A DNA stretch of 64,000 nt from Dehalococcoidia bacterium (GCA_041300025.1 JBGLNL010000001.1:1211576-1275575); one strand, 5' to 3'; shown: positions 2,120 through 59,512, counted from the first letter of the stretch. Translations and numbers: made by a program. Notes: generated from the letters alone by a model not told the origin.

Positions 2120-2150
2120 ATTTAATCCTCATTTCCGTGAGAGAAAAGTT

Positions 2151-8554: not shown

Positions 8555-8571
8555 AAGGAGGTATGAAAAAA

Positions 8572-21267: not shown

Positions 21268-21411
21268 GGGGAAAGGTTATTTTCATAACCCGCGACTGTC
21301 ATCAAAACCGAAGTCCGGTAGTTTGTGAAACTATGAAATTGATCCGCTTTCCCCAGGGTTTTGGTATTTTGGTTCGCTGTTATCATAAATAGCCTCAAGC
21401 CGGTTGTCAAT

Positions 21412-21510
21412 TACCGCTTTTTCAGCCCCCTCGATCCCCTAATCATGGGGGAAGTTTAGATTGGGGGACACCCCCAGACCCCCGAAGTCACCACTTGTTC
21501 AAAAGGTTCC
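21412..21510 (-). repeat. GC-rich hairpin repeat element (GGGGGACACCCCC core), copy A
   Basis: TTGGGGGACACCCCCAGACCCCCGAAGTCACCACT shared with the copies at 38.9, 47.8, 57.0 and 59.4 kb. Confidence 0.7.
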
Positions 21511-22536
21511 TTAAATTATCAGCATGGCGTCCCCAAAACTGTAAAAGCGGTAATCATTCCGAATGGCTTCTTCGTATGCTGCCAGTATCCGTTCCCTCCC
21601 GGCAAAGGCGGCCACCAGCATTAGCAGGGTCGACCTCGGGAGATGGAAATTGGTAATAAGCGTATCCACAGCGCGGAACTCGTAGCCGGGCAGAATATAC
21701 AAATCATTCCAGCCAGTTACCGAACACACTTCCCCATCAGGTTGAATTGCCCGCTCCAGCGACCGCACCGCCGTAGTCCCGACGGCCACGATGCGCCGTT
21801 TCTCCTTTTTTGCCTGATTCAATTTCTGAGCTGTGCTGGCACTCACTTCAAAATATTCACGGTGAAGAGAATGTCCTGCGGGGTCCTCGGACTTGACCGG
21901 ACGGAAAGAGCCGAGCCCGACATGGAGGGTCACAAAAACCAGTTCGATTCCCATCGCAGCAATTCTATCCAGCAAAGCGGGAGTAAAATGCAATCCGGCG
22001 GTTGGAGCCGCCACGCTGCCTTTGGTTCTGGCATAGACCGTTTGATAGCGCTCGGGGTCATCAACCGGTTTGTGGATATATGGGGGCAGGGGCACCTCGC
22101 CGAGATCCTCCAGTAATTCTTCATTATGCAGATGTACCATCACTGTTCCGTTTTCATTTTTCGATTGTACCTCAACCGTGATGCTGCTCTGCTTTTCTTC
22201 GGATTCAATTTCCACCACCGTCCCCGGCCTGACGCGCTTCCCCGGCCTTGCCAGAGACTCCCAGATTGAATCGCCAACCCGGTTCAAAAGGAGAAATTCT
22301 ATCCTCGCTCCACCGCCAGCCTTGTGTCCCAGCAGTCTGGCGGGAATGACCCGGCTTTCGTTTAACACCAGCACATCACCTGATTTAAGATAATCGATGA
22401 TCTCAAAGAAACGGCGATGCTCTATCGAACCATCCGCCCGATTAAGAACCAGCAGGCGCGAATAATCCCGCGGTTCGACCGGGGTCTGAGCAATCATCTC
22501 TGAGGGAAGATAGTACTCGAAATCGGAAGTTTTCAT
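21511..22536 (-). CDS. queA: S-adenosylmethionine:tRNA ribosyltransferase-isomerase
   Basis: MKTSDFEYYLPSEMIAQTPVEPRDYSRLLVL N-terminus. 341 aa. Confidence 0.9.
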   Translation of the reverse strand: MKTSDFEYYLPSEMIAQTPVEPRDYSRLLVLNRADGSIEHRRFFEIIDYLKSGDVLVLNESRVIPARLLGHKAGGGARIEFLLLNRVGDSIWESLARPGKRVRPGTVVEIESEEKQSSITVEVQSKNENGTVMVHLHNEELLEDLGEVPLPPYIHKPVDDPERYQTVYARTKGSVAAPTAGLHFTPALLDRIAAMGIELVFVTLHVGLGSFRPVKSEDPAGHSLHREYFEVSASTAQKLNQAKKEKRRIVAVGTTAVRSLERAIQPDGEVCSVTGWNDLYILPGYEFRAVDTLITNFHLPRSTLLMLVAAFAGRERILAAYEEAIRNDYRFYSFGDAMLII

Positions 22537-25506: not shown

Positions 25507-25632
25507 ATGTATTACAAGGAACTGTTCAAGCTTTTCAATTACACTGATGCGGAAATAGAGAAGGATAAAGAGAGGATCGAGAAGGCCTTTAAGAAGGCAG
25601 ATATCGGGGCTGCAAACTCAAAGCTCTCTTGA
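25507..25632 (+). CDS. 41-aa ORF with strong RBS; possible N-terminal stub of a deleted gene
   Basis: AAGGAG-7nt-ATG. MYYKELFKLFNYTDAEIEKDKERIEKAFKK. Confidence 0.25.
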   Translation: MYYKELFKLFNYTDAEIEKDKERIEKAFKKADIGAANSKLS

Positions 25633-26307
25633 CAAGGCCAATATCCCTTCCGGATCGGAATCCATAGCGATAAATGTCTGAGATTCTGCAGGGAGGGGTT
25701 TGGCGAGGCTGGTGGTGATCTCCTCTATTTTTGTTATGGCATCATCGTATGCAGCGTCTGCGTCCATATCGACATAGGCGTTGGCGATGATATTCATTTT
25801 GTGCTTGACGTGGTCGAAGGCCAGCATGGTATCGGTGAAGAGAAAAATGCAATCCGGCAGGTCGAGTTCGTCGTGTTGTGGTTGAGGCAGTTCTTCGAAG
25901 AAATTGACAATATCGTATGCCATGTAGCCGACTGCCCCGCCGCAGAAGGGTGGAAGTCCGGGTAGGGTAACGGCTTGTCTGGCGCTGAGAATCTCCTGAA
26001 TCAGATGCAGCGGGTCATTATCTGAAAGGGTTATTTTGTGCTCTTCCGATCCGTCGTGGATTATGGCCTGTTTTCCTTTGCTTTCCAGAACCTGCGAGTG
26101 GCCGAGTCCCATGAACGTGTAGCGTCCCAGGTTTTCGCCCCTTTCCACGCTTTCCAGCAGGAAAGTCGGCGCTTCCTGTCCCAGCTTGAGGAACACCGAT
26201 ACCGGCGTATCGAGATCGGCGGCCAGTTCCCGGCAGACCGGGATCAGCACTCCTTTTTCAGCTTTCCTTTTAAATAAGTCTCTATCCGGGAAATATTTAC
26301 CTGCCAT
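25618..26307 (-). pseudogene. trpE: anthranilate synthase component I, N-terminal domain only (catalytic chorismate-binding domain missing)
   Basis: LIPVCRELAADLDTPVSVFLKL TrpE N-terminal signature. It stops after 229 aa. It is preceded by a Trp T-box leader. Confidence 0.7.
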
Positions 26308-26311
26308 TTTT

Positions 26312-26600
26312 CTCCTTCAAAGTCCACCGCAGAGATAATAAAAAACCCCCGTCCCAAAGGGGCGGAGGTTTATCCGCGGTGCCACCCTTTTTAACCGGAT
26401 ACGCTTACAGTACCGGTTATCTTCTTCAGGTACGGCCCTTTTAGCTGGCGATACCCCGGGCTCTGATAACGGTGCCCTTTCCGGCAAAGCCTACTTTCAT
26501 TAGCTGATTTCGGTTTGCGGCTCCCAGGTCCATTCCCATCTGAATCGTATGTACCGGGCTCTCACCTTCCCCGGCTCTCTGTGACTCGCCTTCAAGAGGT
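26312..26600 (-). ncRNA. T-box riboswitch leader (probable Trp specifier UGG) with intrinsic terminator
   Basis: Minus-strand AAAAAGGGTGGCACCGCGG matches the T-box consensus. It is followed by CCTCCGCCCC-TTT-GGGACGGGGG plus a T7 terminator. Upstream are an AGAGAG GA-motif and an AAUGGA specifier candidate. Confidence 0.6.
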
Positions 26601-26918
26601 ACTATTCCTGTTCACAGCCTTTTGGCGCTATTCAATTGTTAATTGCAGAAGTCAATATACAGATTCCCGATGGATTTGTCAAATGCCGCTGCCTTTCAAT
26701 GGGAAATGATCCTGAAGGAGAAATCGGTTTTCAGCGATGTATGAAGTGAATTGACAGGAGGTTACATTTTTGTTGGAGAGGATATCTGAGTTCGTTAATC
26801 TGTCTTTAATCTGAGTGAGGTATAGTGGAATTTTAAGATATACTGTATAGTGTTGTCTGGCATGGCAGAAAGAGATAATTTACATAATGCCACTTTGATT
26901 ATAGAAGGAGAGCCGGGT

Positions 26919-34122: not shown

Positions 34123-34202
34123 GATTTAAATTTCGCCTCCTTTGTGAATATTGCTCATGTTAATCTCGCCCTGATGGGAAATCCACGAATATCATGTTAA
34201 GG

Positions 34203-34355
34203 AATCCCTGATCAACCCCCTGTATCCCCCAATCTTGGGGGAAGTTTGTATTGGGGGACACCCCCAAAACCCCCGGCAGGAAGAATCCTGCACCTCTTTT
34301 CGGATAGCCTGCCACCGAAGTTGGGGGGCCACCCCCCATATCCCCGAAGTCCCCA
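34203..34355 (-). repeat. GC-rich hairpin repeat element, composite copy B
   Basis: TTGGGGGACACCCCCAAAACCCCCGGCAGGAAGAATCCTGCACCTCTTTTC is shared in reverse orientation with the 57.55-kb copy. Confidence 0.7.
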
Positions 34356-35110: not shown

Positions 35111-35479
35111 CCCGCTTCTGGCCCACCAGGCAGGGGATTGGATTCCAGATATTTTGCCATAAACTGTGCCAGCGGTTTGGCCAGCGACTTCAAGTTATTA
35201 TACTTCAAAGCGTGCGCTGCGTCACGTGCCAGTTTTTCATGCAGAAAAAGTGAGCGGATGCCGTTGATTTGCAAAGGATGAATACTGCATTTTTGGCAGG
35301 ATGCTCCTTCTTTAAGCGGAAGCCCGCAGGATTCACAGTAAGGCGGTTCCAGCCGGGGGAGTGCTTCCACACAGATAGAACAGATCAATTCCCCTTCAAT
35401 CCCGCATCCGATACATCTTTGGGGTAAAAGGAGATCAAGGGATACTTCCGAGATTCGGGCGAGTTTTGTTTGCAAGACC
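35107..35479 (-). pseudogene. ComF-type double-zinc-ribbon N-terminal domain; phosphoribosyltransferase domain missing
   Basis: CIGCG...CSICV...CESCG...CQKC. ATG lies 2 nt after the pyrD stop. It ends abruptly at the CoA-transferase fragment. Confidence 0.5.
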
Positions 35480-38857: not shown

Positions 38858-38897
38858 TTTTCTTCTCCTTTGAGAATCCTCTGATTAACTTCCTGTA

Positions 38898-38980
38898 TCA
38901 CTCCAAACCGTGGGGAAGGGGAAGATAGGGGGACACCCCCCCAGACCCCCGAAGTCACCACTCATTCACAATATTCCTTA
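38898..38980 (-). repeat. GC-rich hairpin repeat element, copy C
   Basis: GGGGGACACCCCCCCAGACCCCCGAAGTCACCACT. Confidence 0.7.
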
Positions 38981-39343
38981 ACTTGACTGACCGGAATTCC
39001 TTAGATTCTTAGCCCCTCTGATATATATGTGCTCGATCTCGTCAGCGGATTTCTCGGTGTTATATAGAATCAAAATCCGGATGCACTTCTGCAGGCTGCC
39101 GGGCACGTTCATTTCATGTCCGCACATAAGCGCTGTATTTGTCCACCCCATCTGGCGTGCCGCCAGAGCCGGAAATTCGGCATTAAGGTCTGCGGTAGTG
39201 GTGAAAAAAGCGCAAGCCGCTTCGTCCGCCTCAAGCTGATTAGCCTTAATCATTTTATCCAGAAGTTCACTGGTGCCTTGAAGGATCGATTCCCTGGTAT
39301 TTTCACTAACGGTGGTTGCTCCTCTAATTCCACGGCAGCGCAT
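38978..39343 (-). CDS. aroH: chorismate mutase, AroH class
   Basis: RGIRGATTVSENTRESIL... 121 aa. Confidence 0.8.
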   Translation of the reverse strand: MRCRGIRGATTVSENTRESILQGTSELLDKMIKANQLEADEAACAFFTTTADLNAEFPALAARQMGWTNTALMCGHEMNVPGSLQKCIRILILYNTEKSADEIEHIYIRGAKNLRNSGQSS

Positions 39344-39411
39344 AATTTTCTCTCCTTATGCTTAAACAAATGGTATCACTTACGAAGGAGCTTAGCAACC
39401 GGGCCTGATTT

Positions 39412-39714
39412 TCAGCGGAGCGGTATTCTGGTAGTTATCCCGGCCTCTTCCAGTTCAATGATTTCCTCTTTTGACATGCCCAGCAGTTCCTTGAAAACAT
39501 ACTCATTATGCTCGGCAAAACAGGGAGCCGGCGTGCGGATTTTCCCCGGTGTCCGGCTCAGTTTCCAAGGCATTCCGGGATGGTCGTAAGTGCCCGCTTC
39601 AGGATGGGCAACTGCCTCAAAGAATCTCCTTTGCATCAAATGAGGGTTACTGTTGATTTGCGCTGCATCGAGCACGGCCCCGGCTCGGATTCCAGCCATT
39701 TGAAGTATGCCCAT
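39412..39714 (-). pseudogene. C-terminal ~100-aa fragment of a family III CoA-transferase
   Basis: PGMPWKLSRTPGKIRTPAPCFAEHNEYVFKELLGMSKEEIIELEEAGI is the typical C-terminus. No N-terminal part lies upstream. Confidence 0.5.
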
Positions 39715-39815: not shown

Positions 39816-41282
39816 ATGCTTCCCATTCTTCCTAATGAAAATCAGGGAGGAGTGAATTACATGATAGAGATCAAGTTTTTAAGGATGGGAATACTCGTAC
39901 TGTTGCTGGTAGCGTTGGTGACGGTTGTCCCCTTGGCATTGGCAGATGATTCCCCGGCAATGGGGGGAGCCAACTGGAATGCTGTGGGTACCGAATGGCA
40001 AATGGAGGGGAGTGCCGTTGTAGGCAGCAACGTCCAGAGCGAAGTATGGACCTATTGGATCAACGGGACTGATTCCAATAAAACGGTTGGTCCCGGCGAA
40101 CAGACAGTGGGCGGAAATTATTGTCCACCTAGTGGCGAATTTAGCTGCCCGGCATATGAGGAAACCGGGCAGTCAGTGTATGTCGGGCTCTCCTTAATGG
40201 ATAAAATGATGTACCGGACGGCTCATGGCACCAACGTGGAAACCTGGAGTCCTATGATCATTTACTTAGATCGGCAGACTCTGGAACCTCGCGAACGCTG
40301 GCAGAAATCCGGTGCAATACTGGGGGAAACCTGGAGCAAGGTCTGGAATATTAATGCTGCCGGCGTGCCGGCTGATCGGGACCTGAACGGTGGAGAGACA
40401 TGGCACTATAATGAAACCACTGATCCGGCCTCTGCTGGATGGGGGAATACCAGCGATTGGTTTGGGCAGGATGCGGGAAACCAGAATAATGAGCTCTATA
40501 ACGTGAGCGTATCTAATACACCGCAGGACATAACTGTGGCCGGGATGACCTTCTCCTGCTATGAAGTCGATAAACTCGGTCCGCGCGGGCACATTTATGA
40601 TTACTGGGATGTAGATGGAGCGCTGGCCGGCCCGGTCAAGACCATCGATGAATTGAGTTTTGATCAGACCAATACATTAACACTGAGGTACCACGACTGG
40701 CCGGGAGCACCGACGGTGACCATGTGCAATAATGCCGGAACCCCAAAGACCGATTGGACCGCTACGCCCGGTGACAATGTATATGTAACTGGTCATTGGG
40801 TTACCCTTAATCCCAGCCTGGGAGATGGGACGCCAAATCAGTATGATATCTGGATTGGCCAGGGAGCACCGAGCGAAGGTGATGTGCTGGGAACCGATTG
40901 GGGTACAGACACAGGTATGGATGCCAATGTGGCGCCGCAAGCGGGTGCCAATGTGCCGGGGACATTTTTCGTAAACCTTGGGCCGGCCCAGAATTTACCT
41001 GTCAACGGCCCCGGTCTTTATATTATTCTTGATGAAGGTGATGGGATTTATCATCTGGACAACCAGACGTTCGAATTGGAAGGTTATAACTTTGATGATA
41101 TCGATTCGCTAGCTAACTGCCCAGCCTGTTATGTTGAGGGCAACACGGCTTTTGACGATGGATTGAGCAATGCTTTCGAACTGTCCGGCGGGTTACTGGT
41201 GGAAACGCTGCCGGCAACCGGCGTCACGCCCAATAACGCTAGAACAACCCCGGTGCTTTCCATGCGGATATCACCAGTTTGA
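39816..41282 (+). CDS. secreted cell-surface protein, N-terminal part (signal peptide). It continues in 41243..44581 after an apparent frameshift.
   Basis: Signal peptide MIEIKFLRMGILVLLLVALVTVVPLALA. G/T/N/D/W-rich composition. Confidence 0.6.
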   Translation: MLPILPNENQGGVNYMIEIKFLRMGILVLLLVALVTVVPLALADDSPAMGGANWNAVGTEWQMEGSAVVGSNVQSEVWTYWINGTDSNKTVGPGEQTVGGNYCPPSGEFSCPAYEETGQSVYVGLSLMDKMMYRTAHGTNVETWSPMIIYLDRQTLEPRERWQKSGAILGETWSKVWNINAAGVPADRDLNGGETWHYNETTDPASAGWGNTSDWFGQDAGNQNNELYNVSVSNTPQDITVAGMTFSCYEVDKLGPRGHIYDYWDVDGALAGPVKTIDELSFDQTNTLTLRYHDWPGAPTVTMCNNAGTPKTDWTATPGDNVYVTGHWVTLNPSLGDGTPNQYDIWIGQGAPSEGDVLGTDWGTDTGMDANVAPQAGANVPGTFFVNLGPAQNLPVNGPGLYIILDEGDGIYHLDNQTFELEGYNFDDIDSLANCPACYVEGNTAFDDGLSNAFELSGGLLVETLPATGVTPNNARTTPVLSMRISPV

Positions 41283-44200
41283 ATCCGGGCCAGAGATACT
41301 ATTTCCGAGCCAGCGGGGACAATGGAGCCGCCTATGGACTGGAGCGTTTTCTTGACACCCCGGCGACAACGACTGTCTGGATTGATGCCCCATTAGGAGC
41401 TGAACAGGGCACTGACTTCACGGCTACGGTCAGGATAGATAATGTTACCAATTTCGATTCCAGTATTTATGATGTCAACTTTGATGGTTCAGTACTCCAA
41501 CTAAATAATGTCACCGGTGGCATGATCGGGGCAAATGGCATTCCTGTAGATACTTATACGAACTTAGGCCCCGGCGCTTACCGGATAGATCAAAATATTC
41601 CCGGGAACCCGGGTGTAACTGGCTCCGGCTATCTGGCTGAGCTGCATTTCAGTGTGCCGGGAGCGCTTTCAGGTAATACTAATATAAACCCGGCCAATGG
41701 CAATCTTTGGAACAACATGGGGGCGGTGATTCCGGCAGTGTGGAATGGCGATATTGTCACGATCAGCAGCCGATCGGTAACGATTGATGATTTCAAAGTC
41801 ACCCCCACACTGGAGGAATGGAAAGAGGCGGGGTGGAATATGCCCATGGCCAATAAGGTATCTAGATATGAAATTACTTTCACTTTAACTAACGAAGGGG
41901 AGCTTGAGGGGGGTGTCGATGAGATTCATATCACGTTCCCGAATGAAATGCAGTTACCAACAAGCATTGATCCCAGTAACGTATTGGTAAACGGTGTAAA
42001 CTGTGGAAATGATAATTTCGATGGAGATGCAGCGATTTCAAATAAGACCTTGAAAATCGTCGTTCCTCAAAATATACCTGATGGAGCGGTTTGTACCGTG
42101 ATAATCATGCAAAGCGCCGGCATTGCCAATCCAAAGCTTTCTCAGGAGCTCATACCTCCGGGGAATCAGAACGGTTATCCGGCTACTTATGACCCTGCGA
42201 TGAACCTTCATCTTGATCGTGCAACCGATGAGTTGTATCAACTCAAGGTTGCTACTACCTCCGATCCCATAAATGCCAGCCGTGAATTTCAGGTGTTCGA
42301 CTGGATGGAGATGGAAAAGAATCAAATGGGGATGATCGAATTTCCGTTTGGGGGGATGGTTATTGTTAATGGTGCCGGGTTCATGCCCGATGCCACCGTT
42401 ACCCTGAATGGTCTTTCAGGTGGTCCGCTGGCGGGTTCTGGCAAAGTGAGCAGCGATGGCACGGTCGCCATTTATGGATTTGCCAGTGGGGCTCCGCCGT
42501 TTGTTCCTCTCGAGGGTACCGATGGATCTGGCAGGGCATCTAACTGGGTCTGGCCCATGTACTCGCTGAACACCGATCAAATTGATGAAAATTCGAATAA
42601 GTATTCTGCTGAGGGTGTCTGGCATTTGCTGCCCAGTCTTTCGCTTTCTGCTAATTCCGGTCTGGCGGGCTCTCAGATAATTATTGAAGGTACCAACTGG
42701 ACGGGAACTCCCACTGCCGTCTATCCGCAGGATATTACCATCGGTGGGATGCCGCTCCCTGTTGAGGAAACTCCTGTGATGATGGATAAGGACCATGATT
42801 CCAGTTTTCTGCAGGCGTTTCAGGGCGTTGAGCTAAACACTGGGAAGGATGATTTCTCTGTGAAGGCTCAAATACCGAGAAATCTGAAAGGCGGGAAATA
42901 TGAGATTGTAGTTACTGGCGGTGATACCATGCGTTGCCTGCCGGCATTGGTGGCAGGCAATAATGGATGGGCGTGTGGTAATTCATTCGATTGTTTTAAT
43001 GATTCCATTAATAGAATTGCTGCCGGTTTGCCACCGCTTGGTATTTGCGCGGATGGAGGCACGGCCGTGGTAAGAGCTACGTTTACAGTACTTCCACGAA
43101 CTGTCAAGGTGGAACCCTCCAACGCGGCACCCGGTAGCACAGTCACCTTGAAGGGGGAAGGTTTTGTAGCTGGCGAACCTGATAATTTTAATGGCGGTGC
43201 TGGCTTTGCTCATAACCTTGGAGGTATTGCTGTATACAAATATGGTAACAGCATAAAAACAGAAACGATAACTACCAATATCGAGGTTGATGATCAGGGC
43301 GGGTTCACCGCTGTAGGCAAAATTCCTGCAGATGCCACTGAGGGGAATGGTGAGGTAATTGTCTTCTTCGATCCCACCGATACCTTCTATGATGGTGAGG
43401 GAGATCTGGACGAGGTATCCGCCAAAGCCGCTTTTGCACCGGCAAGCAGGGGACTCACGGTTATCCCCTCAAGCGGCCCACTGGGAACCACCATCACCGT
43501 CAGCGGCGGTAATTTCGGTTCTGCCGCCGGTGGCGTCATACCGAGACTGGAAGTTAATTATTTTGAAGATCCCGGCTTACCCACACTGGAACCCCTGAGC
43601 ACTGCAGGGCAGATGGTTCCTGAGACTTTTGAGGTTGACGCTGATGAGGGCTTCCGCTATGGTGATGATAACATGATCAGAGTTATTGCCCCTTGTGGCG
43701 GTATTGACTTGACGGCAGCCTGCACGTTTGATGTTACCCGCCCCACGTTGCAGCTTGATAAAACCCGGGGTCCGCGCGGCACGCTGGTGAAGGTCTCCGG
43801 TTCCGGGTGGCAGACATCAGGACTCAATTTTGTCACTATTGCGTACCGGGGTAATGGTGCTATCGATGATGCTACCGTGGCAGTAGTGGAACCCAATGGA
43901 AATGGTGATATCGCGGCCCAGTTCCGTATTCCGTCTTTTGATGATGCGGATATGGGTGGAGGCGAAGCTAATCTGATTTTCACCGCCACTGATGGGGAGA
44001 ATGACTCTCTACAGAGTATTTTTACGGTGACCGGTCCCCATATCAGTGTGAAACCGGAATCGGCAGCAGGTGGAGAGGTAATCACAGTGCATGGTGAGGG
44101 CTTCCTGCCGCAGTCACAGGTGCAGGAAATTTCTCTGGCCAATGCTCCTATTGTACCCATATATGAGCTTAAGCTGACCGATGCACAGGGCGCGTTCGAA

Positions 44201-44581
44201 ATCACGGGCACAGTTCCTGGCGTAATGCCGGGCGGTTATGCGATAAATGCCCGAGTTAATCAGAATGAAGGCGCTGAGATTACCTGCCCGTTTACTGTGG
44301 TGAGTGGAGGTGTCGGTGATGTTTCAGTTGAAGAGGGCTTTGCCTCCATCGGCAAGAACGCCGAAGGCGGCCAGTACCTGTTCACCAAGGTATGGACATT
44401 CGATTCAAAGACCAAAGAGTGGCTGGTATATGATATAGCAGAAGGCGCTCCTGATCAGTTTGATACCCTTGCGACTGGTCAGGGATACTGGGTGGAAGTC
44501 ACCGATGATTGCACCCTGACACATGGTGCTTATACGTATGACCTGATTAAAGGCTGGAACCTTATCGGCTGGCAGGGCTAG
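41243..44581 (+). CDS. surface protein, C-terminal part (Ig/cohesin-like beta-rich repeats). Frame open from 41243. 40-nt overlap with the part-1 frame.
   Basis: Same composition as part 1. No plausible independent start (first codon TTG). A C4 run at the overlap. Confidence 0.6.
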   Translation, partial: NNPGAFHADITSLNPGQRYYFRASGDNGAAYGLERFLDTPATTTVWIDAPLGAEQGTDFTATVRIDNVTNFDSSIYDVNFDGSVLQLNNVTGGMIGANGIPVDTYTNLGPGAYRIDQNIPGNPGVTGSGYLAELHFSVPGALSGNTNINPANGNLWNNMGAVIPAVWNGDIVTISSRSVTIDDFKVTPTLEEWKEAGWNMPMANKVSRYEITFTLTNEGELEGGVDEIHITFPNEMQLPTSIDPSNVLVNGVNCGNDNFDGDAAISNKTLKIVVPQNIPDGAVCTVIIMQSAGIANPKLSQELIPPGNQNGYPATYDPAMNLHLDRATDELYQLKVATTSDPINASREFQVFDWMEMEKNQMGMIEFPFGGMVIVNGAGFMPDATVTLNGLSGGPLAGSGKVSSDGTVAIYGFASGAPPFVPLEGTDGSGRASNWVWPMYSLNTDQIDENSNKYSAEGVWHLLPSLSLSANSGLAGSQIIIEGTNWTGTPTAVYPQDITIGGMPLPVEETPVMMDKDHDSSFLQAFQGVELNTGKDDFSVKAQIPRNLKGGKYEIVVTGGDTMRCLPALVAGNNGWACGNSFDCFNDSINRIAAGLPPLGICADGGTAVVRATFTVLPRTVKVEPSNAAPGSTVTLKGEGFVAGEPDNFNGGAGFAHNLGGIAVYKYGNSIKTETITTNIEVDDQGGFTAVGKIPADATEGNGEVIVFFDPTDTFYDGEGDLDEVSAKAAFAPASRGLTVIPSSGPLGTTITVSGGNFGSAAGGVIPRLEVNYFEDPGLPTLEPLSTAGQMVPETFEVDADEGFRYGDDNMIRVIAPCGGIDLTAACTFDVTRPTLQLDKTRGPRGTLVKVSGSGWQTSGLNFVTIAYRGNGAIDDATVAVVEPNGNGDIAAQFRIPSFDDADMGGGEANLIFTATDGENDSLQSIFTVTGPHISVKPESAAGGEVITVHGEGFLPQSQVQEISLANAPIVPIYELKLTDAQGAFEITGTVPGVMPGGYAINARVNQNEGAEITCPFTVVSGGVGDVSVEEGFASIGKNAEGGQYLFTKVWTFDSKTKEWLVYDIAEGAPDQFDTLATGQGYWVEVTDDCTLTHGAYTYDLIKGWNLIGWQG

Positions 44582-46740: not shown

Positions 46741-47100
46741 GAAGAGCATGAGATAGGAGACAAGCTGGAAGAGCAGGAAAAACTCGAAAAAAAGGAGGAA
46801 CGGAATGGATGAATTAAAAAACAAAGAGCGGGAAGAGATTGACGAATTAACGATCAACGAGCATGCGATGGGAGACATGCTGGAGAGCAAGAGAAACTCG
46901 AAAGAACAAGGAGGAATGGAATGGACACAGCAGTAAAGAACAATGGGCATGAGACGGAAGACAAGCTGGAAGCGCAGGAGAAACTAGTAAAAAAAGGAGG
47001 AAAAGGAATGAACACAACAGTAAAGACCAATGAGCATGAGACGGAGATCAATGAGCATGAGATGGGAGACCAGATGGAAGTGCTGGAGAAACTCGATGAA
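46741..47100 (+). repeat. degenerate tandem repeat, period ~110 bp, ~3.5 copies, each with an SD+ATG
   Basis: Reiterated GAGCATGAGATGGGAGAC...AAGCTGGAAGNGCAGGAGAAACTCG...AAAGGAGGAANGGAATGGA units. Confidence 0.65.
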
Positions 47101-47466
47101 ATTATGGTCGAGGGTGAAACCAGCATTGATGACGACGTTGTAGCTGCTATCGCCGGGGTGGCGGCACAGGAAGTCGAGGGTGTTGCCAGCATGGGAACCG
47201 CCTCCATTCAACGTTCTATCTCGGAAGTCGTCGGCCGATCCGAGAAACGATCCAGAGGTGTAGAAGGCGAGCATGGCAAGAAAGAGGCGATCGTCGACCT
47301 CACACTGAAGGTGAATTACGGATTCAGTATTCCCGAGATAATTATTCAGGTTCGCAAAAATGTCGCTATGCGTCTTCTGGATCTATGTGGACTGATTGTT
47401 AAAGAAGTCAACATAACTATAGCCGGCATTGAATTCCCGGAGAAAGTATCCGACACATTGAAATAG
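46921..47466 (+). CDS. asp23: Asp23/Gls24-family alkaline shock protein with repeat-derived N-terminal extension
   Basis: DDVVAAIAGVAAQEVEGVASM Asp23 core. The true start may be an internal Met (47033 or 47063). Confidence 0.75.
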   Translation: MDTAVKNNGHETEDKLEAQEKLVKKGGKGMNTTVKTNEHETEINEHEMGDQMEVLEKLDEIMVEGETSIDDDVVAAIAGVAAQEVEGVASMGTASIQRSISEVVGRSEKRSRGVEGEHGKKEAIVDLTLKVNYGFSIPEIIIQVRKNVAMRLLDLCGLIVKEVNITIAGIEFPEKVSDTLK

Positions 47467-47798
47467 TTAATAATCTGAATCCGTGGAAGGGATAGGAGAG
47501 AGGGGATTTTATTTCTTAATCTTCTTTCTTTGCAAGTTGTTCTGAGGCATGCGCCCCACTCGAAGGCGTGAGAGCCTATTTAAAGGCATCTTCTCACCCA
47601 TGAGGTGAAGATTATATGTACTTTAAGACAAAGTCAGGGCGGGGGACGGATCAACTTGCCAGCCATTCAGGCTTGATCCCTGATGGTGGGCAATACTGGA
47701 CAAGAGTAATGTGCGAGAGCGATTAAAGGCGGTAGTGTTGCTCGAATATCCCTCCACGGATTTTAGGTGATAACCCGGAGATAAAATTCTATAACTAA

Positions 47799-47895
47799 GG
47801 AACCTTGTGAATAAGTGGTGACTTCGGGGGTCTGGGGGTGTTCCCCCAGCTTCCACCTTTCCCCAGGTTTGGGGTGATACAGGGAGTTGATCACA
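47799..47895 (+). repeat. GC-rich hairpin repeat element, copy D
   Basis: GGAACCTTGTGAATAAGTGGTGACTTCGGGGGTCTGGGGGTGTTCCCCCAG. Confidence 0.7.
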
Positions 47896-47933
47896 AGATT
47901 CCCAAAATAAGCACTGAAGTGTGGTAAATAAGT

Positions 47934-53001: not shown

Positions 53002-53010
53002 GTAAATTTA

Positions 53011-53140
53011 TAGGGAACCTATTCAGCCCCCTTGTGTCCCCCAGCTTCAAATCCCCTCTCTTTCCCCCTTTGTGAAAGGGGACGAAAAGGGAGTTTGGGA
53101 ATACAAGGGGGTTGAAAAAGACTTATTGGACAGCCTGTTT
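53011..53140. repeat. GC-rich hairpin repeat element, variant copy E, with GGGGGTTGAAAAAGA...GACAGCCTG module
   Basis: GGAACCTATTCAGCCCCCTTGTGTCCCCCAG; TTTCCCCCTTTGTGAAAGGGGA. Confidence 0.6.
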
Positions 53141-53165: not shown

Positions 53166-54872
53166 CTACTGATCGGAGATGGAAGCGACGTTGCGCAGCA
53201 CCTCGTAGGGGGTGGTAACGCCCTGCTTTACTTTCAGCATGGCGTTATGCCACATAGGAACCATTCCGTCCTTTATTGCCTGAGCCCGTATTTCACTCGA
53301 ATTGGCATTATTGAGTATCAGCCGTCGCAAATCCTCAGTAACTGTCATGAGTTCATGCACGCCGGTACGGCCACGGTAGCCGGTGTTGGAACAGATGCTG
53401 CATCCTCTGCCGTAGAAAAACTCCTGACGCTTTTCCTTCATCTCCTGCTCGTATATCAGCCGTTCTGCCGGCGGGGCAGGCATTGACTTCTTGCAATGCG
53501 TACAGACTCGCCTTACCATCCGTTGCGCCACTACTCCTAAAAGAGAGGAGGCTATGAGGAATGATTCCACGCCCAGATCCATAAGCCGGTATATCACACC
53601 GACGGAATCGTTTGCGTGAATGGAAGAGAGCACAAGGTGCCCGGTAAGAGCGGCCTGAATAGCAATTCCGGCGGTTTCACCATCACGTATCTCACCAACC
53701 AGAATGACATCCGGGTCAAGCCGCATCAGTGCCCGCAATCCGCTGGCAAATGTCATACCGGCCTGATTATTAGTTTGAATCTGGCTTATATCATTAAAGT
53801 GATATTCTACCGGATCCTCAATTGTCATGATATTGCGCTCATACCGGTTGAGCTGCCCCAGTGCAGAATACAGAGTAGTAGTTTTACCGGATCCAGTGGG
53901 CCCGGAGAGCAGTATCATACCATACGGAGCATTTATAATCTTATTGAATCTCTCAAGGTCATGGGCCATAAATCCGAGTTCGGTCAGATTCAGCAATGCC
54001 ACTGATTTATCCAGCAACCGCAGCACCATTTTCTCACCGTGGACCGTATCTGTAGTGGCGGCGCGGATATCTATCTCTCTGCCCTCCCCGATATTTACGG
54101 AAAACTGCCCGTCCTGTGGCCTGCGCCGGTCGGCGATATTCATTCCTGCCATGATCTTCATTCTGGAAATCAGAGGCGGGTGAACATCCAGCGGCAGCGA
54201 CATCACATCATGCAGGATGCCGTCTATGCGATATCGAATGCGCAATCTATCTTCCTGTGGTTCAATATGTATATCGGATGCCTTGTCGTTGGCTGCCTGG
54301 GCCACGAGCATGTCTACGGTACGGGCGATGGGACTATCGGCAGCGAGATCCTGATTTGATTGCACCTTCATTTTTTTCGCCTCGGCCTCGAGGGCCATGG
54401 CGATATGTCCAACTTCCTTCTCTATAGCACCCTCACCCGTCTTGTAGTTTAGATTTATATAAGCTTTGATCTCGCCAGGATCGGCCTGCACCGGATTGAT
54501 GGGCATTCCCACCTTAGCTTTGATATCTTCAAGCAACTCTTCCTCGGTCGGGTCTGCCATAGCTAGCACCAGTTCATCATTAACTATCGCTATGGGCATG
54601 ATATTCGCTTCCCTGGCCTTCTCGGCTGAGATGAGATTCAATGCGCGCTGCTCCACTTTGTATTCGCCCAGTGAAACAAAGGATGTCTCCTGCTGCATAC
54701 TGGTAATGAGCCCCAGTTCATCCGCGGTTATCAAGCCTTCCTCAGAAAGGAGTTGCTCGATATTCTTATGGCTCTCCTCTCGCTTTGACAGAAGTTCCTC
54801 ATACTTCTCGGCAGTTACTATCTCAGCTTCCTGTAATAGCTTGCCAAGTTCTCTTTCACCAATTTTGGCCAT
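53166..54872 (-). CDS. pilB: GspE/PilB-family type II secretion / type IV pilus assembly ATPase
   Basis: T2SSE N-terminal domain. Walker A GPTGSGKTT. Tetracysteine motif CxxC...CxxC. 568 aa. Confidence 0.9.
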   Translation of the reverse strand: MAKIGERELGKLLQEAEIVTAEKYEELLSKREESHKNIEQLLSEEGLITADELGLITSMQQETSFVSLGEYKVEQRALNLISAEKAREANIMPIAIVNDELVLAMADPTEEELLEDIKAKVGMPINPVQADPGEIKAYINLNYKTGEGAIEKEVGHIAMALEAEAKKMKVQSNQDLAADSPIARTVDMLVAQAANDKASDIHIEPQEDRLRIRYRIDGILHDVMSLPLDVHPPLISRMKIMAGMNIADRRRPQDGQFSVNIGEGREIDIRAATTDTVHGEKMVLRLLDKSVALLNLTELGFMAHDLERFNKIINAPYGMILLSGPTGSGKTTTLYSALGQLNRYERNIMTIEDPVEYHFNDISQIQTNNQAGMTFASGLRALMRLDPDVILVGEIRDGETAGIAIQAALTGHLVLSSIHANDSVGVIYRLMDLGVESFLIASSLLGVVAQRMVRRVCTHCKKSMPAPPAERLIYEQEMKEKRQEFFYGRGCSICSNTGYRGRTGVHELMTVTEDLRRLILNNANSSEIRAQAIKDGMVPMWHNAMLKVKQGVTTPYEVLRNVASISDQ

Positions 54873-55138
54873 TGCGACTATCCTTCTATCTTTAATCCTT
54901 CAGGTTATTGGGGATATCCCATCGACCCGTTTGGAGCCACCTTTCCGATGATTCCTCTATTTCTTTTTACCCTTTTTCTTGCTCCCTGAATCTATAATCT
55001 CATCGAGGTCATCAGCTTTCGTCTTCTTCACGGGGGCTTTCGGCGCGCGAGGTATATTGCCCTGCATATCATCTATTTCGGAATCCATTAGAACATCAGG
55101 TATATTTAGTGGAAAAAGAACCTTCCATCGGTGGGGTC

Positions 55139-57022
55139 ATGGCTCAACTGGATAAGACCTTCCCCACGATGGATTGCGCTATCTGAATACTCGGCCCCAA
55201 AATGATGGATGCCGGTCGGCATCCCAGGATTAAACTGCTGACCTTGAGCGAGGTCGAAGAGGTCAACGGTTATGTTGGCAACTTCAAAGTAAAAGTGCGC
55301 AAAAAGGCAAGATACGTCAATGAGAAAGAATGCACTGCCTGTAACGATTGCGCTGAAGTTTGCCCGGTAACCTGTCCGGATGAATATCAGGCTGGACTCG
55401 GCACCAGAAAGGCTATTTATATCCCCTTCGCTCAGGCGGTGCCATCGGCTTATGTGATAAACCCGGAAAATTGTCTGGGAAGTAATCCGATTGCCTGCGG
55501 TAAATGTGCCGAAGCCTGCGAGAAAAAATGCATCGATTTCGATATGCAGGATGAGATAATCGAGCTCGATGTTGGAACCATCATCGTGGCTACCGGTATG
55601 GATGTGTATGATCCCACGGAGATGGATGAATACGGTTATACCCGGTTTGATAATGTGGTCACCAGCCTGGAATTTGAGCGTCTGATCTGTGCTGATGGCC
55701 CGGCGGAAGGCCACCTCGTGCGGCCCGGCGATCGCAAAACGCCCCGGCGCATCGGATTTATCCAGTGTGTCGGGTCTCGAATGGAGAATCGGGGGAATCC
55801 CTACTGCTCCAATATTTGCTGCATGAATACAGTGAAGGATAGCCTGCTCCTCAAGGAGCACTATCCCGATACCGAAATATTCGTGTTCTATATAGATATG
55901 CGGGCCTTCGGCAAGGGATTCGAAGCTATGCTGAAACGCAGCCACGAGGTTGGAGTGAATTATATCCGCGGCCTGCCCGGCAGTGTCATGGAAGACCCAA
56001 AAACCGGCAACCTGATCGTGGATGTGGAGAACACCACCGCCGGAAGGCTGGAGCAATATAATCTCGATCTGCTGATTCTCGCTGTAGGACTGGTGCCGCG
56101 CGCCGAAGGGGAGCATCTTCGCCAGATATTGAACCTTTCCAAGACAAGCGACGGATTCCTGATGGAAGCCCATCCCAAATTAAGGCCTGTCGATGCCCCT
56201 ACTCCGGGGGTTTTTCTCGCCGGGTGCGTGGAATCGCCCAAGGATGTTAAGGACAGCGTTACTCAGGCCAGTGCGGCCGCTTCCCGGGCTTCCGTTATTC
56301 TCAATTCCGATAAACTTACCGTAGAAGCCATCACCGCAGTGGTCGATAAGGAAAAATGCACCGCCTGCGGAGTCTGTGCCCGCGTGTGCCCTTACGGAGC
56401 CATCAAATTTGATAAGGAAGCAAAAGCCCCGGCGGAAGTGATCGAGGCCATGTGCGCCGGTTGCGGCGTCTGTGCCGCCGAGTGCCAGTTCGATGCTATC
56501 AGCATCCGTCATTTCAGTGATGAAGCCCTGATGGCGCAAACTGAATCCGCGGTGGCGGAAAGAGCCGACGAAAGAATAGTTGTCTTTGCCTGCAACTGGT
56601 GTTCCTATGCCGGTGGAGACGGGGCAGGCACATCACGCCTGCAATATCCGCCCAATTCCCGCATCATCCGGACCATGTGCAGCGGGCGAGTTGATGAGAA
56701 GTTCATTCTGCGGGCATTCGAACTGGGAGCAGCGATGGTGCTGGTTTCCGGCTGCCATTTTTCTGATTGCCACTACATCGATGCCAATCGGTGGGCCCAG
56801 CGCCGGGTGGATAAATTATGGAACAAGATGGAGAAGCTGGGAATACGTCCGGAGCGGTTGCAACTGGAATGGATCAGCGCGGCCGAAGGGCAGAAGTTTG
56901 CCAGTGTGATGCGCGAGATCGAAGGCATGCGCCGGAAAGTCACTGCTGAAGAGATTGAACATACGAAAAAAGTGCTCAAAGAGGATCGGGAGAAGAGGGC
57001 TAAAAAGGAAAAGAAAAAGTAG
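55139..57022 (+). CDS. hdrA: HdrA-like heterodisulfide reductase subunit fused to an MvhD domain. Probable selenoprotein (in-frame TGA at 55184). The N-terminal FAD-binding region is missing.
   Basis: The frame through the TGA reads [48 protein letters not shown], matching the HdrA consensus with Sec at the Cys position. A GGATGCC-GGTC-GGCATCC hairpin lies 21 nt after the TGA. The C-terminal [14 protein letters not shown] region is MvhD-like. The conventional ORF is 55202..57022. Confidence 0.6.
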
Positions 57023-57026
57023 CTGG

Positions 57027-57545: not shown

Positions 57546-57830
57546 CTTCAGGCTGTCTGAAAAGAGGTGCAGGATTCTTCCTGCCGGGGGTTTTGGGGGT
57601 GTCCCCCAATATAACCTTCCCCCATGATTGGGGGATTGAGGGGGTTGAAAAAGAGTTTTTAGACAGCCTGATTGAGGTGAGGGTGAATATCTCATTTGGT
57701 CGCTCTCATTCACTATGCTGGCAACCATGCTTCGCATTTCCCCCTCACTCTAACTCTCTCCCCCGAGGGGAGAGAGGACTTCATTTCCCCCTTTGGCAAA
57801 GGGGGAAATGATCAAAGGTTCCTTAACTAA
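57546..57830 (+). repeat. GC-rich hairpin repeat element, composite copy G, with additional perfect palindromes
   Basis: CAGGATTCTTCCTGCCGGGGGTTTTGGGGGTGTCCCCCAAT...GGGGGTTGAAAAAGAGTTTTTAGACAGCCTG. CTCTCTCCCCCGAGGGGAGAGAG. TTTCCCCCTTTGGCAAAGGGGGAAA. Confidence 0.7.
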
Positions 57831-57909: not shown

Positions 57910-58176
57910 TTGGAGACGAAAATGACGACTTTAATCAGAATAGGAAATTCGCAGGGTGTCCGTATTCCAAAGGCGATAATCGAGCAAGCACGATTAGAAG
58001 ACAAGCAATTGGAATTTAAAATAATCGACGACGGACTGTTAATTCAACCGGTTAAGAAGACCAGAGAAGGCTGGAAAGAACAATTTGATAAAGCCCTTAA
58101 ATCCCAGGATTCAAGCGAAGCAGATCAGGAGTGGTTGGACGCCTCATTGGTAGATGAAGAGGACTGGGAATGGTAA
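57910..58176 (+). CDS. mazE: MazE/PemI-type antitoxin (AbrB-fold)
   Basis: MTTLIRIGNSQGVRIPKAII. Confidence 0.8.
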   Translation: METKMTTLIRIGNSQGVRIPKAIIEQARLEDKQLEFKIIDDGLLIQPVKKTREGWKEQFDKALKSQDSSEADQEWLDASLVDEEDWEW

Positions 58177-58499
58177 AAAAAAATGTTCATAGATTTGATA
58201 TTTGGCTGGTTCAACTTGATCCGACACAAGGTTCTGAAATTAAGAAAACAAGGCCTTGTGTTGTTATCTCCCCTGATGAAATGTCTGCACTGAAGACCGC
58301 GATTGTTGCTCCAATGACATCCAAAGGATTTAGCTATCCAACCAGAATTCAATATACATTTCAGGGTAAAAAAGGATTGATCCTGCTTGACCAAATGAGA
58401 ACCGTTGACAAATCCAGGTTAATTCAAAAACTTGGTGTAATTTCTCAAAGCGCGCAGATTAAGACTATCAATTGTTTACAAGAGCTTTTCGCGTATTAA
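58170..58499 (+). CDS. mazF: MazF/PemK-type endoribonuclease toxin
   Basis: IWLVQLDPTQGSEIKKTRPCVVISPDEM. 7-nt overlap with the antitoxin. Confidence 0.85.
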   Translation: MVKKNVHRFDIWLVQLDPTQGSEIKKTRPCVVISPDEMSALKTAIVAPMTSKGFSYPTRIQYTFQGKKGLILLDQMRTVDKSRLIQKLGVISQSAQIKTINCLQELFAY

Positions 58500-59414: not shown

Positions 59415-59512
59415 GCGACAGGCTGCGCAGCCTAGCTAAGGAACCTCTGAATAAGTGGTGACTTCGGGGTTTGGGGGGTACAGGGGGTTGATCAGAGTTT
59501 CCCTAATTAATC
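59415..59512 (+). repeat. GC-rich hairpin repeat element, copy H
   Basis: AGGCTGCGCAGCCT palindrome. GGAACCTCTGAATAAGTGGTGACTTCGGGGTTTGGGGGGTACAGGGGGTTGATCAG. Confidence 0.7.

What the first reader, a model, noticed from the sequence alone, without database searches (positions are those of the whole stretch)
55088..57022. HdrA-MvhD fusion with in-frame UGA and SECIS-like hairpin: probable selenocysteine; N-terminal FAD domain missing
The ORF called from 55202 continues upstream in the same frame through a single TGA (55184-55186). The extended frame reads [29 protein letters not shown]-[TGA][18 protein letters not shown]. This matches the HdrA consensus [27 protein letters not shown], with the TGA exactly at the second Cys of the DCxxC site. 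Sec-containing HdrA is known in some methanogens and in sulfate reducers and syntrophs. A perfect hairpin GGATGCC-GGUC-GGCAUCC begins 21 nt downstream of the UGA. Its GGUC apical loop resembles the E. coli fdhF SECIS. Upstream of QVYLVEK the frame loses HdrA homology and there is no GxGxxG. The gene is therefore 5'-truncated, unless an unusual architecture applies.
Basis: partly seen in the sequence, partly recalled or inferred. Interest (0 to 1): 0.7.

Follow-up and report, generated by a model that had tools for sequence, protein, structure and literature searches.

The report
Selenocysteine HdrA gene cut by contig join
This is the back two-thirds of an ordinary selenocysteine-containing heterodisulfide-reductase (HdrA-MvhD) gene with a textbook bacterial SECIS hairpin, and its "missing" front end is almost certainly an artefact of unrelated assembly pieces having been joined in the deposited genome record.

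Summary
Frame +1 reads [33 protein letters not shown](55184-55186)[10 protein letters not shown]... and runs to TAG at 57022. A 7-bp hairpin with a GGUC loop lies at 55207-55224.

The selenocysteine reading is strongly supported:
- In 180 related loci the codon is TGA in 131 cases and TGT/TGC in 49.
- It aligns with Cys197 of the solved HdrA (5ODC), which is Sec197 in Methanococcus maripaludis.
- All 50 distinct Sec-type sequences in the first (metagenome) set keep the hairpin, with C-G to U-A compensation. None of the 24 Cys-type sequences in that set does.
- The element meets all four criteria of the published bacterial SECIS model.

The 5' truncation is real in the sequence but not biological. 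Homology to six sibling MAGs (99%) starts abruptly at 55094. To the left lies the 3' tail of an unrelated minus-strand gene. At least six such junctions lie in 25 kb, about 4.7 kb apart, and each cuts genes. The deposited 1.77-Mb record also holds mvhD, hdrCB and a 129-residue hdrA N-terminal fragment elsewhere.

This is a known selenoprotein family and an ordinary gene, in a mosaic record. Interest is low.

The parts
55094..55183 (+). hdrA codons 168-198 ([30 protein letters not shown]). This is the remnant upstream of the Sec codon and has no start codon of its own.
   Evidence: identical in frame to L001 5893-5982. Homology to all relatives starts at 55094.
55184..55186 (+). In-frame UGA read as selenocysteine (residue 199 of the full 810-residue protein).
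   Evidence: TGA in 60 of 85 and 71 of 95 homologous loci, TGT/TGC in the rest; aligns to Cys197 of 5ODC_A. Sec197 in M. maripaludis.
55207..55224 (+). Bacterial SECIS hairpin: 7-bp stem GGAUGCC/GGCAUCC with apical loop GGUC (55214-55217), 27 nt between UGA and loop.
   Evidence: It is kept in 50 of 50 distinct Sec-type sequences (99.1% of cells paired; U-A 26, C-G 20, U-G 4 at one pair) and in 0 of 24 Cys-type sequences. Energy -12.3 kcal/mol. Same loop as fdhF.
55187..57022 (+). Remainder of hdrA-mvhD to the TAG stop. It contains the rest of the thioredoxin-reductase-like FAD domain, the inserted ferredoxin domain, the C-terminal 2x[4Fe-4S] ferredoxin domain (about 56336-56503) and the fused MvhD/FlpD domain (about 56576-56923). 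Gene callers report only 55202-57022 (606 aa).
55093..55096 (.). Junction between two unrelated pieces of the record, with an ambiguous 3-nt overlap CAT at 55094-55096.
   Evidence: The left piece matches L010, L011 and L012 up to 55096. The right piece matches L001/L095, L093 and L094 from 55094. Both continue differently in every sibling contig.
54957..55096 (-). Last 46 codons and stop of a coiled-coil E/A/K/R-repeat protein of at least 1382 aa. It is cut at the same junction and is called as a 43-aa ORF at 54957-55088.
53166..54872 (-). PilB/GspE-type secretion ATPase (MshEN + T2SSE), the intact left neighbour. It is not part of the hdr locus in any relative.

Best explanation
Window 55094-57022 is codons 168-810 of an 810-codon gene for a selenocysteine-containing HdrA-MvhD fusion (the 'HdrA2' type) from a Dehalococcoidia bacterium. 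HdrA is the flavin/iron-sulfur subunit of a heterodisulfide-reductase-like electron-bifurcating complex.

In the intact gene, seen in sibling genomes downstream of mvhD and a fused hdrCB, UGA at codon 199 is decoded as selenocysteine. The mRNA hairpin GGAUGCC-GGUC-GGCAUCC, 21 nt downstream, serves as the SECIS element. By analogy with fdhF it recruits SelB carrying Sec-tRNA(Sec) to the ribosome paused at the UGA (inferred). The Sec replaces the second Cys of the DCxxC pair next to the FAD.

The missing 5' part is not a property of the organism's gene. The deposited 1.77-Mb sequence from which the window comes is a mosaic of pieces about 4.7 kb long joined without spacers, most likely size-sorted contigs that were concatenated. 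One such joint falls at 55093-55096. The other half of the operon lies elsewhere in the same record.
For: **Identity.**
- The N-terminus of L001 plus the window ORF aligns end to end with solved HdrA 5ODC_A (E 2.5e-244). Residues 660-777 align with MvhD 5odc_D.
- Pfam finds FlpD and Fer4 domains.
- The nearest named genomes are Dehalococcoidia MAGs at 91%, 88% and 82%.

**Selenocysteine.**
- The codon is TGA in 60 of 85 loci and Cys in the rest. In a second set it is TGA in 71 of 95 across several phyla.
- The closest database homologues are all called at 603-609 aa, preceded by a 198-aa ORF that ends at this TGA. The next tier, at about 70%, is 807-822 aa with Cys.
- The frame is conserved across the 15 nt between the TGA and the ATG (ILGPK versus VLGPK).
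- TGA is an ordinary stop in 10 of 38 window ORFs, so there is no genome-wide reassignment.

**SECIS.**
- 42 of 50 distinct Sec-type sequences have a perfect 7-bp stem and the rest have 6 bp with or without a wobble. The loop is GGUC in 49 of 50. One pair switches U-A/C-G/U-G with no mispairs.
- The Cys-type genes encode the same peptide MD[AV]GRHP with free synonymous sites, and none of 24 forms the stem.
- All four bSECIS model criteria quoted in PMC13188914 are met: loop 4 nt, stem 7 bp, G in loop positions 1-2, spacing 27 nt, and -12.3 kcal/mol.

**Artefact.**
- Junctions against sibling MAGs (98.1-99.7% identical) lie at 35126/7, 39833/4, 45726/7, 50423-6, 55093-6 and 59747/8. Piece lengths are 4707, 5893, 4698, 4670 and 4652.
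- Further truncated domains occur near 1230, 11.1-11.3 kb and 25.6-25.8 kb.
- The chimeric ORFs created by the junctions exist in the protein collection only as singletons on one NCBI contig of 1,771,430 bp.
- That same contig also carries mvhD, hdrCB, the 275-aa upstream neighbour, and a 150-aa ORF equal to HdrA residues 1-129 followed by junk.
- Sibling MAG GCA_041300065.1 has both loci intact (L012, L094). More distant relatives L102-L104 have mvhD-hdrCB-hdrA contiguous.
Against: - No selA, selB, selD or tRNA-Sec is in the window or in any fetched locus, so the decoding machinery of this genome is unverified.
- Rfam has no model that hits the hairpin.
- The single-sequence MFE of a 62-nt context prefers another fold.
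- For the artefact reading, I could not see the record, its assembly method or its reads.
- One piece (5893 nt) breaks the otherwise decreasing size series.
- The joint shows 3 nt of microhomology, which is also what illegitimate recombination would leave.
Confidence: 0.88

Rival explanations
1. The junction at 55094 is a real rearrangement or deletion in this strain. hdrA and the coiled-coil gene are then recent pseudogenes and the strain has lost a functional Hdr module at this locus.
For: The joint is in the deposited record and was not introduced by window preparation. It has a 3-nt microhomology, typical of illegitimate recombination. The window differs by about 1% from all siblings, so it is a distinct strain.
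Against: - At least six such joints lie in 25 kb, about 4.7 kb apart, and each truncates genes such as trpE, CoA-transferases, an MMPL-like transporter and an ice-binding-like protein. The comparison genomes are 98.1-99.7% identical and agree with each other.
- The other hdr operon genes and an hdrA N-terminal fragment are elsewhere in the same record. The N-terminal fragment ends 116 nt before the C-terminal fragment starts, and the lost stretch is exactly the conserved GxGxxG region. That is the pattern of an assembly break.
- No public contig contains the joint.
Confidence: 0.07
2. The TGA is a genuine stop. The organism makes a split HdrA (198-aa N-terminal protein plus 606-aa C-terminal protein from ATG 55202), or in this window a stand-alone 606-aa protein.
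For: Gene callers annotate it this way in every database entry. An ATG lies 15 nt after the TGA.
Against: - The stop falls exactly on a conserved redox Cys that is Sec in M. maripaludis.
- It alternates only with TGT/TGC.
- The five codons between the TGA and the ATG are conserved in frame.
- A hairpin meeting all SECIS criteria is conserved with compensation only when the codon is TGA.
- A split at this point would cut through the FAD domain.
Confidence: 0.03
3. The hairpin is coincidental, or serves another role such as a minus-strand terminator or mRNA stability element.
For: The terminator scan lists it on the minus strand, followed by ATCATTTTGG.
Against: It lies inside a coding region. 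No minus-strand gene ends there. It is invariant in 50 Sec-type genes from several phyla and degenerate in Cys-type genes that encode the same peptide.
Confidence: 0.02

Closest known systems
HdrA of Methanococcus maripaludis (Sec197) and Methanothermococcus thermolithotrophicus (PDB 5ODC, Cys197)
   Same: End-to-end homology over residues 7-654 (E 2.5e-244). The same DCxxC/U motif next to FAD, with the window's UGA at the exact Sec197/Cys197 position. The same N-terminal, thioredoxin-reductase-like, inserted and C-terminal ferredoxin domains.
   Different: The gene here is bacterial (Dehalococcoidia). It is fused to MvhD at the C-terminus. The SECIS lies inside the coding region just after the UGA (bacterial type), whereas archaea place it in the 3' UTR. 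The physiological partners and substrate are unknown.
Bacterial Sec-containing HdrA family (Zhang et al. 2006, PMC1794560: Syntrophobacter, Syntrophus, Moorella, Carboxydothermus and others)
   Same: An established selenoprotein family with Sec/Cys interconversion. It is often clustered with MvhD/FrhD and GlpC/HdrCB-like genes.
   Different: Those descriptions centre on Deltaproteobacteria and Firmicutes. Here the family is in Chloroflexota, and also in Zixibacteria, Marinimicrobia, Fidelibacterota and WOR-3. It carries an almost invariant SECIS sequence and is systematically mis-called as two ORFs (198 + about 606 aa).
HdrA2 of Methanosarcina (HdrA-MvhD fusion; the NCBI product name 'CoB-CoM heterodisulfide reductase HdrA2' is given to the Cys-type homologues)
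   Same: Same domain order: HdrA followed by a fused MvhD domain.
   Different: The Methanosarcina protein is a Cys form as far as I recall (own knowledge, not tested here). The window's lineage uses Sec.
E. coli fdhF SECIS
   Same: A stem-loop in the coding region just downstream of the UGA with the identical apical loop GGUC. Both fit the bSECIS consensus.
   Different: Spacing from UGA to loop is 27 nt here and 18 nt in fdhF. The stem is a plain 7-bp helix without the bulged U of fdhF. SelB binding has not been tested.

Membership tests
HdrA (heterodisulfide reductase subunit A, flavin-based electron-bifurcating flavoprotein) | Full-length sequence homology to experimentally solved HdrA | tested here: met
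   E 2.5e-244 to 5ODC_A over residues 7-654 of the reconstructed protein. The window itself supplies residues 168-810.
HdrA (heterodisulfide reductase subunit A, flavin-based electron-bifurcating flavoprotein) | FAD-binding Rossmann GxGxxG and N-terminal Cys-rich [4Fe-4S] domain | tested here: not met
   Absent from all three frames upstream of 55094 in the window. Present in sibling L001 (VIGGGVAGIQ; CNCG...CSPRLHE...EHCSW), and residues 1-129 are present elsewhere in the same record (P0150). The failure is attributed to the record joint, not to the gene.
HdrA (heterodisulfide reductase subunit A, flavin-based electron-bifurcating flavoprotein) | DCxxC/U redox pair next to FAD, plus inserted and C-terminal ferredoxin domains | tested here: met
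   MDCAI-U at 55169-55186. Fer4 dicluster hits. Aligned Cys motifs.
Bacterial selenoprotein gene | In-frame UGA at a position occupied by Cys in homologues, with the frame conserved on both sides | tested here: met
   131 TGA versus 49 TGT/TGC in 180 loci. Flanks are conserved.
Bacterial selenoprotein gene | bSECIS: 3-9 nt loop, 4-16 bp stem, G in the first two loop positions, 16-37 nt from UGA to loop, MFE <= -7.5 kcal/mol (criteria quoted in PMC13188914) | tested here: met
   Loop GGUC (4 nt), stem 7 bp, spacing 27 nt, -12.3 kcal/mol.
Bacterial selenoprotein gene | Genome encodes SelA, SelB, SelD and tRNA-Sec | not testable with these tools
   None in the 64-kb window (ARAGORN; tblastn with E. 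coli SelA/B/D; NCBIfam on 10 large ORFs).
Bacterial selenoprotein gene | Selenium actually incorporated (75Se labelling or mass spectrometry) | not testable with these tools
   Experimental.
MvhD/FlpD ([2Fe-2S] electron-transfer subunit) | PF02662 domain with conserved Cys ligands | tested here: met
   E 9.6e-46 over profile positions 1-116 of 123. E 1.2e-39 to 5odc_D.

The most novel reading that the evidence does not exclude
The joints are real. In that case this Dehalococcoidia strain would carry a massively scrambled genome in which hdrA was split, and the 606-aa ORF might be expressed from ATG 55202 as an N-terminally truncated, Sec-less and FAD-motif-less HdrA-MvhD iron-sulfur protein. 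A milder novel point that is supported is that an almost nucleotide-invariant SECIS (GGAUGYC-GGUC-GRCAUCC) is shared by Sec-HdrA genes of at least six phyla, which suggests horizontal spread of the Sec form together with its SECIS.
Probability: 0.05. Interest if true: 0.4.

Novelty: new member of a known kind. Interest (0 to 1): 0.15.

Why it matters
**Biology.** The finding adds little. HdrA is a long-established selenoprotein family, the Sec position is the known one, and the SECIS is canonical.

**Annotation.** In the Chloroflexota and allied MAGs sampled here, the Sec-type hdrA-mvhD loci whose gene calls I inspected were all annotated as two ORFs (198 aa + about 606 aa), because the UGA is read as a stop. 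At least 131 public loci fetched here carry the TGA at this codon. Metabolic reconstructions that count 'HdrA' by length or domain will therefore mis-score them.

**Data quality.** The 1.77-Mb record behind this window appears to be a spacer-free concatenation of pieces about 4.7 kb long. Any 'truncated', 'fused' or 'unusual architecture' gene call from it, in this window and probably in others, should be treated as suspect.

Tried and rejected
- **Rfam.** The gathering threshold on the whole window gave only a T-box. An E-value search on 55100-55320 gave only chance hits. Rfam has no usable model for this bacterial SECIS.
- **Single-sequence fold.** The MFE fold of 55184-55245 does not pick the hairpin, so I relied on comparative data instead.
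- **Junction search.** The exact 53-mer spanning the joint was not found in genome contigs or metagenome contigs.
- **Looking up the window's own genes.** The 606-aa product is 'not on record' and the source record is hidden. The 157-aa ORF at 39116-39589 gave nothing.
- **Local inversion or simple deletion.** I tested whether the missing hdr upstream region, or the remainder of the coiled-coil gene, lies elsewhere in the window. Neither does. The 10 kb upstream of hdrA in the sibling holds no pilB or coiled-coil gene.
- **Benchmark scrambling.** I considered that the window had been scrambled by whoever prepared it. This is rejected because the chimeric ORFs are in the public protein collection on the 1,771,430-bp NCBI contig.
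- **The 53079 boundary.** I considered it a joint. This is rejected because sibling contig L183 bridges it, and the difference is a variable REP-like repeat.
- **Genome-wide UGA reassignment.** Rejected.
- **Sel machinery.** tblastn for SelA/B/D found nothing in the window or in about 190 fetched loci.

Full report
**1. The observation**

Reading 54875-57025 in frame 1 gives ...[54 protein letters not shown]... and then an uninterrupted frame to TAG at 57020-57022. The only in-frame stop is TGA at 55184-55186, and the mechanical ORF is 55202-57022, 606 aa. GGATGCC-GGTC-GGCATCC lies at 55207-55224. None of the three forward frames upstream of 55094 contains GxGxxG or anything HdrA-like. Pfam finds Fer4 domains and a C-terminal FlpD/MvhD domain with E 9.6e-46.

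**2. What the gene is**

A search of 5.8 billion proteins returns two tiers.
- The closest relatives (78-100% identity) are all 603-609 aa.
- The next tier (about 70%) is 807-822 aa and is named HdrA2 in Dehalococcoidia and Chloroflexota MAGs.

Genomic context explains the split. In each of the three closest relatives whose contigs I looked up (P0001, P0002 and P0010; loci L001-L009), a 198-aa ORF with FAD-family hits ends 15 nt before the ~606-aa ORF. It is preceded by a fused hdrCB (Fer4 + CCG) and an mvhD.

In L001 (GCA_041299945.1, 99.1% identical to the window) the upstream ORF reads MNKDGLRIGVFVCNCG...[64 protein letters not shown]. This is an 810-codon gene with UGA at codon 199.

The reconstructed protein aligns end to end with the solved HdrA of M. 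thermolithotrophicus (5ODC_A, E 2.5e-244). Residues 660-777 align with MvhD (5odc_D). In that gap-free block, query residue 199 falls on Cys197 of 5ODC_A. The 2026 cryo-EM study of M. maripaludis Hdr-Vhu-Fwd describes Sec197 of HdrA paired with a Cys between cluster A3 and FAD (PMC13518236). HdrA is an established bacterial and archaeal selenoprotein family (PMC1794560).

**3. Evidence that the UGA encodes selenocysteine**

*Codon alternation.* I located the DKTFPTxDCxx motif in all fetched loci.
- Window, lookup and metagenome set: TGA 60, TGT 18, TGC 7.
- Species-representative genome set: TGA 71, TGT 16, TGC 8. This set spans Chloroflexota, Zixibacteria, Marinimicrobia, Fidelibacterota, Zhuqueibacterota and WOR-3.
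- No other codon occurs, and the frame and residues on both sides are conserved (ILGPK after Sec, mostly VLGPK after Cys).

*Hairpin conservation.* Among the 50 distinct Sec-type sequences:
- 42 have a perfect 7-bp stem, 5 have six pairs plus a wobble, and 3 have six pairs.
- The loop is GGUC in 49 of 50.
- On alignment A1, 99.1% of cells pair. This drops to 22-57% when the partner is slid by 1-3 columns.
- Pair 29/36 is U-A in 26 sequences, C-G in 20, U-G in 4, and never mispaired.

*The Cys-type control.* The 24 Cys-type sequences encode the same peptide MD[A/V]GRHP but use free synonymous codons. None forms the 7-bp stem and their loops vary. This is the natural control for coding constraint.

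*Fit to the SECIS model.* The hairpin folds at -12.3 kcal/mol. It has 27 nt between the UGA and the loop. It meets all four criteria of the consensus bSECIS model quoted in PMC13188914. Its loop is identical to that of E. coli fdhF, read directly from MG1655.

*No global recoding.* TGA ends 10 of 38 long ORFs in the window.

*What is not shown.* No tRNA-Sec and no SelA, SelB or SelD lie in these 64 kb, and the rest of the genome cannot be inspected. SelB binding and selenium incorporation are inferred.

**4. Why the 5' end is missing**

*The junction itself.* BLASTN shows that the window matches L001/L095, L093 and L094 (three sibling MAGs, 99.0-99.3%) only from 55094 onward. All three siblings continue upstream with the hdrA 5' part, hdrCB and mvhD. 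Left of the break, 53079-55096 matches L010, L011 and L012 (99.55-99.70%). Those contigs continue rightward with more than 4 kb of a coiled-coil E/A/K/R-repeat protein of at least 1382 aa. The 43-aa minus-strand ORF at 54957-55088 is that protein's C-terminal tail. Two genes are therefore cut at one point, with only 'CAT' shared. Sibling GCA_041300065.1 has both loci intact on separate contigs (L012, L094). Relatives at 91%, 88% and 82% protein identity also have mvhD-hdrCB-hdrA contiguous.

*It is not an isolated event.* Sharp homology ends against mutually consistent sibling contigs occur at six places.

| Junction | Genes affected |
|---|---|
| 35126/7 | A CoA_transf_3 gene keeps only profile positions 152-366 of 366 |
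| 39833/4 | A minus-strand gene of at least 394 aa (in sibling L190) is cut, keeping only its C-terminal ~140 codons in the window |
| 45726/7 | An ice-binding-like protein is 202 aa instead of 509; a CoA-transferase is 331 aa instead of 441 |
| 50423-6 | Intergenic |
| 55093-6 | hdrA and the coiled-coil gene |
| 59747/8 | An MMPL-like N-terminus then junk |

Domain truncations also mark three further sites:
- about 1230 (YloV and a CrtO-like paralogue)
- about 11.1-11.3 kb (an amine-oxidase-family protein keeps only profile positions 2-229 of 443)
- about 25.6-25.8 kb (TrpE keeps only its N-terminal domain behind its T-box)

The verified pieces measure 4707, 5893, 4698, 4670 and 4652 nt. Four of the five lie within 1.2% of each other and they decrease from left to right. 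That is what size-sorted contigs joined end to end would give, with one unexplained outlier.

*The joints are in the deposited record.* The chimeric ORFs they create (202, 181, 43 and 331 aa) are present in the public protein collection. Each is a singleton on one NCBI contig of 1,771,430 bp. That same contig also carries:
- mvhD (P0155)
- hdrCB (P0156)
- the 275-aa upstream neighbour (P0166)
- a 150-aa ORF (P0150) equal to HdrA residues 1-129 followed by unrelated sequence

The gene is therefore split between two pieces of one record. About 116 nt, covering residues 130-167 and the conserved GxGxxG stretch, are missing between them. That is the signature of an assembly break at a conserved segment shared by paralogues. 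It is not the signature of a reciprocal rearrangement.

*Probabilities.* A genome 98.1-99.7% identical to six siblings cannot plausibly carry a gene-destroying rearrangement every ~4.7 kb. I put about 0.9 on a record or assembly artefact and about 0.07 on a real rearrangement.

**5. Mechanism**

*Shown.* The gene is an HdrA-MvhD fusion of the known family. The UGA sits at the known Sec/Cys197 site. A SECIS-type hairpin is under selection only in the UGA forms.

*Inferred from established knowledge of bacterial Sec decoding (fdhF paradigm).* SelB carrying GTP and Sec-tRNA(Sec) binds the GGUC loop and upper stem while the ribosome has the UGA in the A site. The result is an approximately 88-kDa selenoprotein. 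The Sec forms a selenylsulfide/selenol pair with Cys196 (DC-A-I-U) next to the bifurcating FAD.

*Unknown.* The complex is presumably MvhD-HdrCB-HdrA(MvhD), but its physiological donor and acceptor are not known. Neighbouring genes differ between relatives.

**6. Comparison and novelty**

Same as known: the family, the Sec position, the SECIS type and loop, and the operon partners. Different or new: the lineage (Dehalococcoidia), the fusion with MvhD in a Sec form, the near-invariant SECIS across phyla, and the mis-annotation as two ORFs in every Sec-type locus whose gene calls I inspected. This is a new member of a known kind. The truncation, which was the part of the finding that looked unusual, is explained away.

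**7. Verdict**

Interest is low (0.15). The useful by-products are an annotation warning for Sec-hdrA and a quality warning for the source record.

Noticed in passing
window 35126/7, 39833/4, 45726/7, 50423-6, 55093-6, 59747/8; also about 1230, 11.1-11.3 kb and 25.6-25.8 kb: The window is a mosaic of unrelated pieces about 4.65-4.9 kb long (one of 5.9 kb) joined without spacers, and most joints cut genes. The resulting chimeric ORFs are singletons on one NCBI contig of 1,771,430 bp. This looks like size-sorted contigs concatenated into one record.
   Followed up: yes
window 21393-21517, 34197-34311, 38869-38984, 47792-47909, 57549-57677, 59433-59509 (also L012 2661-2755, L095 3785-3897 and 12349-12476): A family of intergenic REP/MITE-like repeats about 100-130 nt long and 80-93% identical, containing GGGGGAACACAAGGGGGCTGA-type motifs. 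Sibling short-read contigs tend to end at them, and copy number differs between strains (for example downstream of pilB at 53002-53090).
   Followed up: partly
window 26355-26624 (-) and 25618-26307 (-): A T-box leader (115.5 bits) lies directly upstream of a trpE fragment that has only the anthranilate synthase N-terminal domain. The chorismate-binding domain is cut off by a joint.
   Followed up: partly
window 39816-44581 (+), around 41243-41282: The 488-aa and 1100-aa ORFs (signal peptide; Cohesin and TIG domains) look like one large surface protein interrupted by a frameshift: ...VETLPATGVTPNNA / NNPGAFHADITSLNPGQRYYF. This could be a sequencing error or a real frameshift.
   Followed up: no
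window 1232-2122 (-) versus 2151-3884 (-), and 8457-10247 (+), 10357-11277 (+): Several paralogous FAD-dependent CrtO/phytoene-desaturase-like genes. One is an N-terminal fragment 79% identical in DNA to its neighbour, and another is C-terminally truncated.
   Followed up: partly
window 57910-58176 and 58170-58499 (+): A MazE/PemK-type toxin-antitoxin pair lies downstream of hdrA. It is also present in sibling L001.
   Followed up: no
window 46744-47096: Imperfect tandem repeats (about 70-86% identical) in the DNA just upstream of, and across the first ~60 codons of, the first Asp23-family gene (46921-47466).
   Followed up: no
L131, L135, L146, L148, L157, L160, L163, L164, L167, L168, L172, L177, L179: Many non-Chloroflexota genomes carry two Sec-type hdrA paralogues about 5-7 kb apart, each with the same UGA and the same SECIS hairpin.
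   Followed up: no
L010 2-4150 (continuation of window 54957-55096, minus strand): A very large protein (at least 1382 aa) made almost entirely of E/A/K/R-rich coiled-coil repeats (about 45-residue units, '...REAE..AK..EA.R.AQEI...') sits immediately upstream of pilB in the siblings. Function unknown.
   Followed up: no
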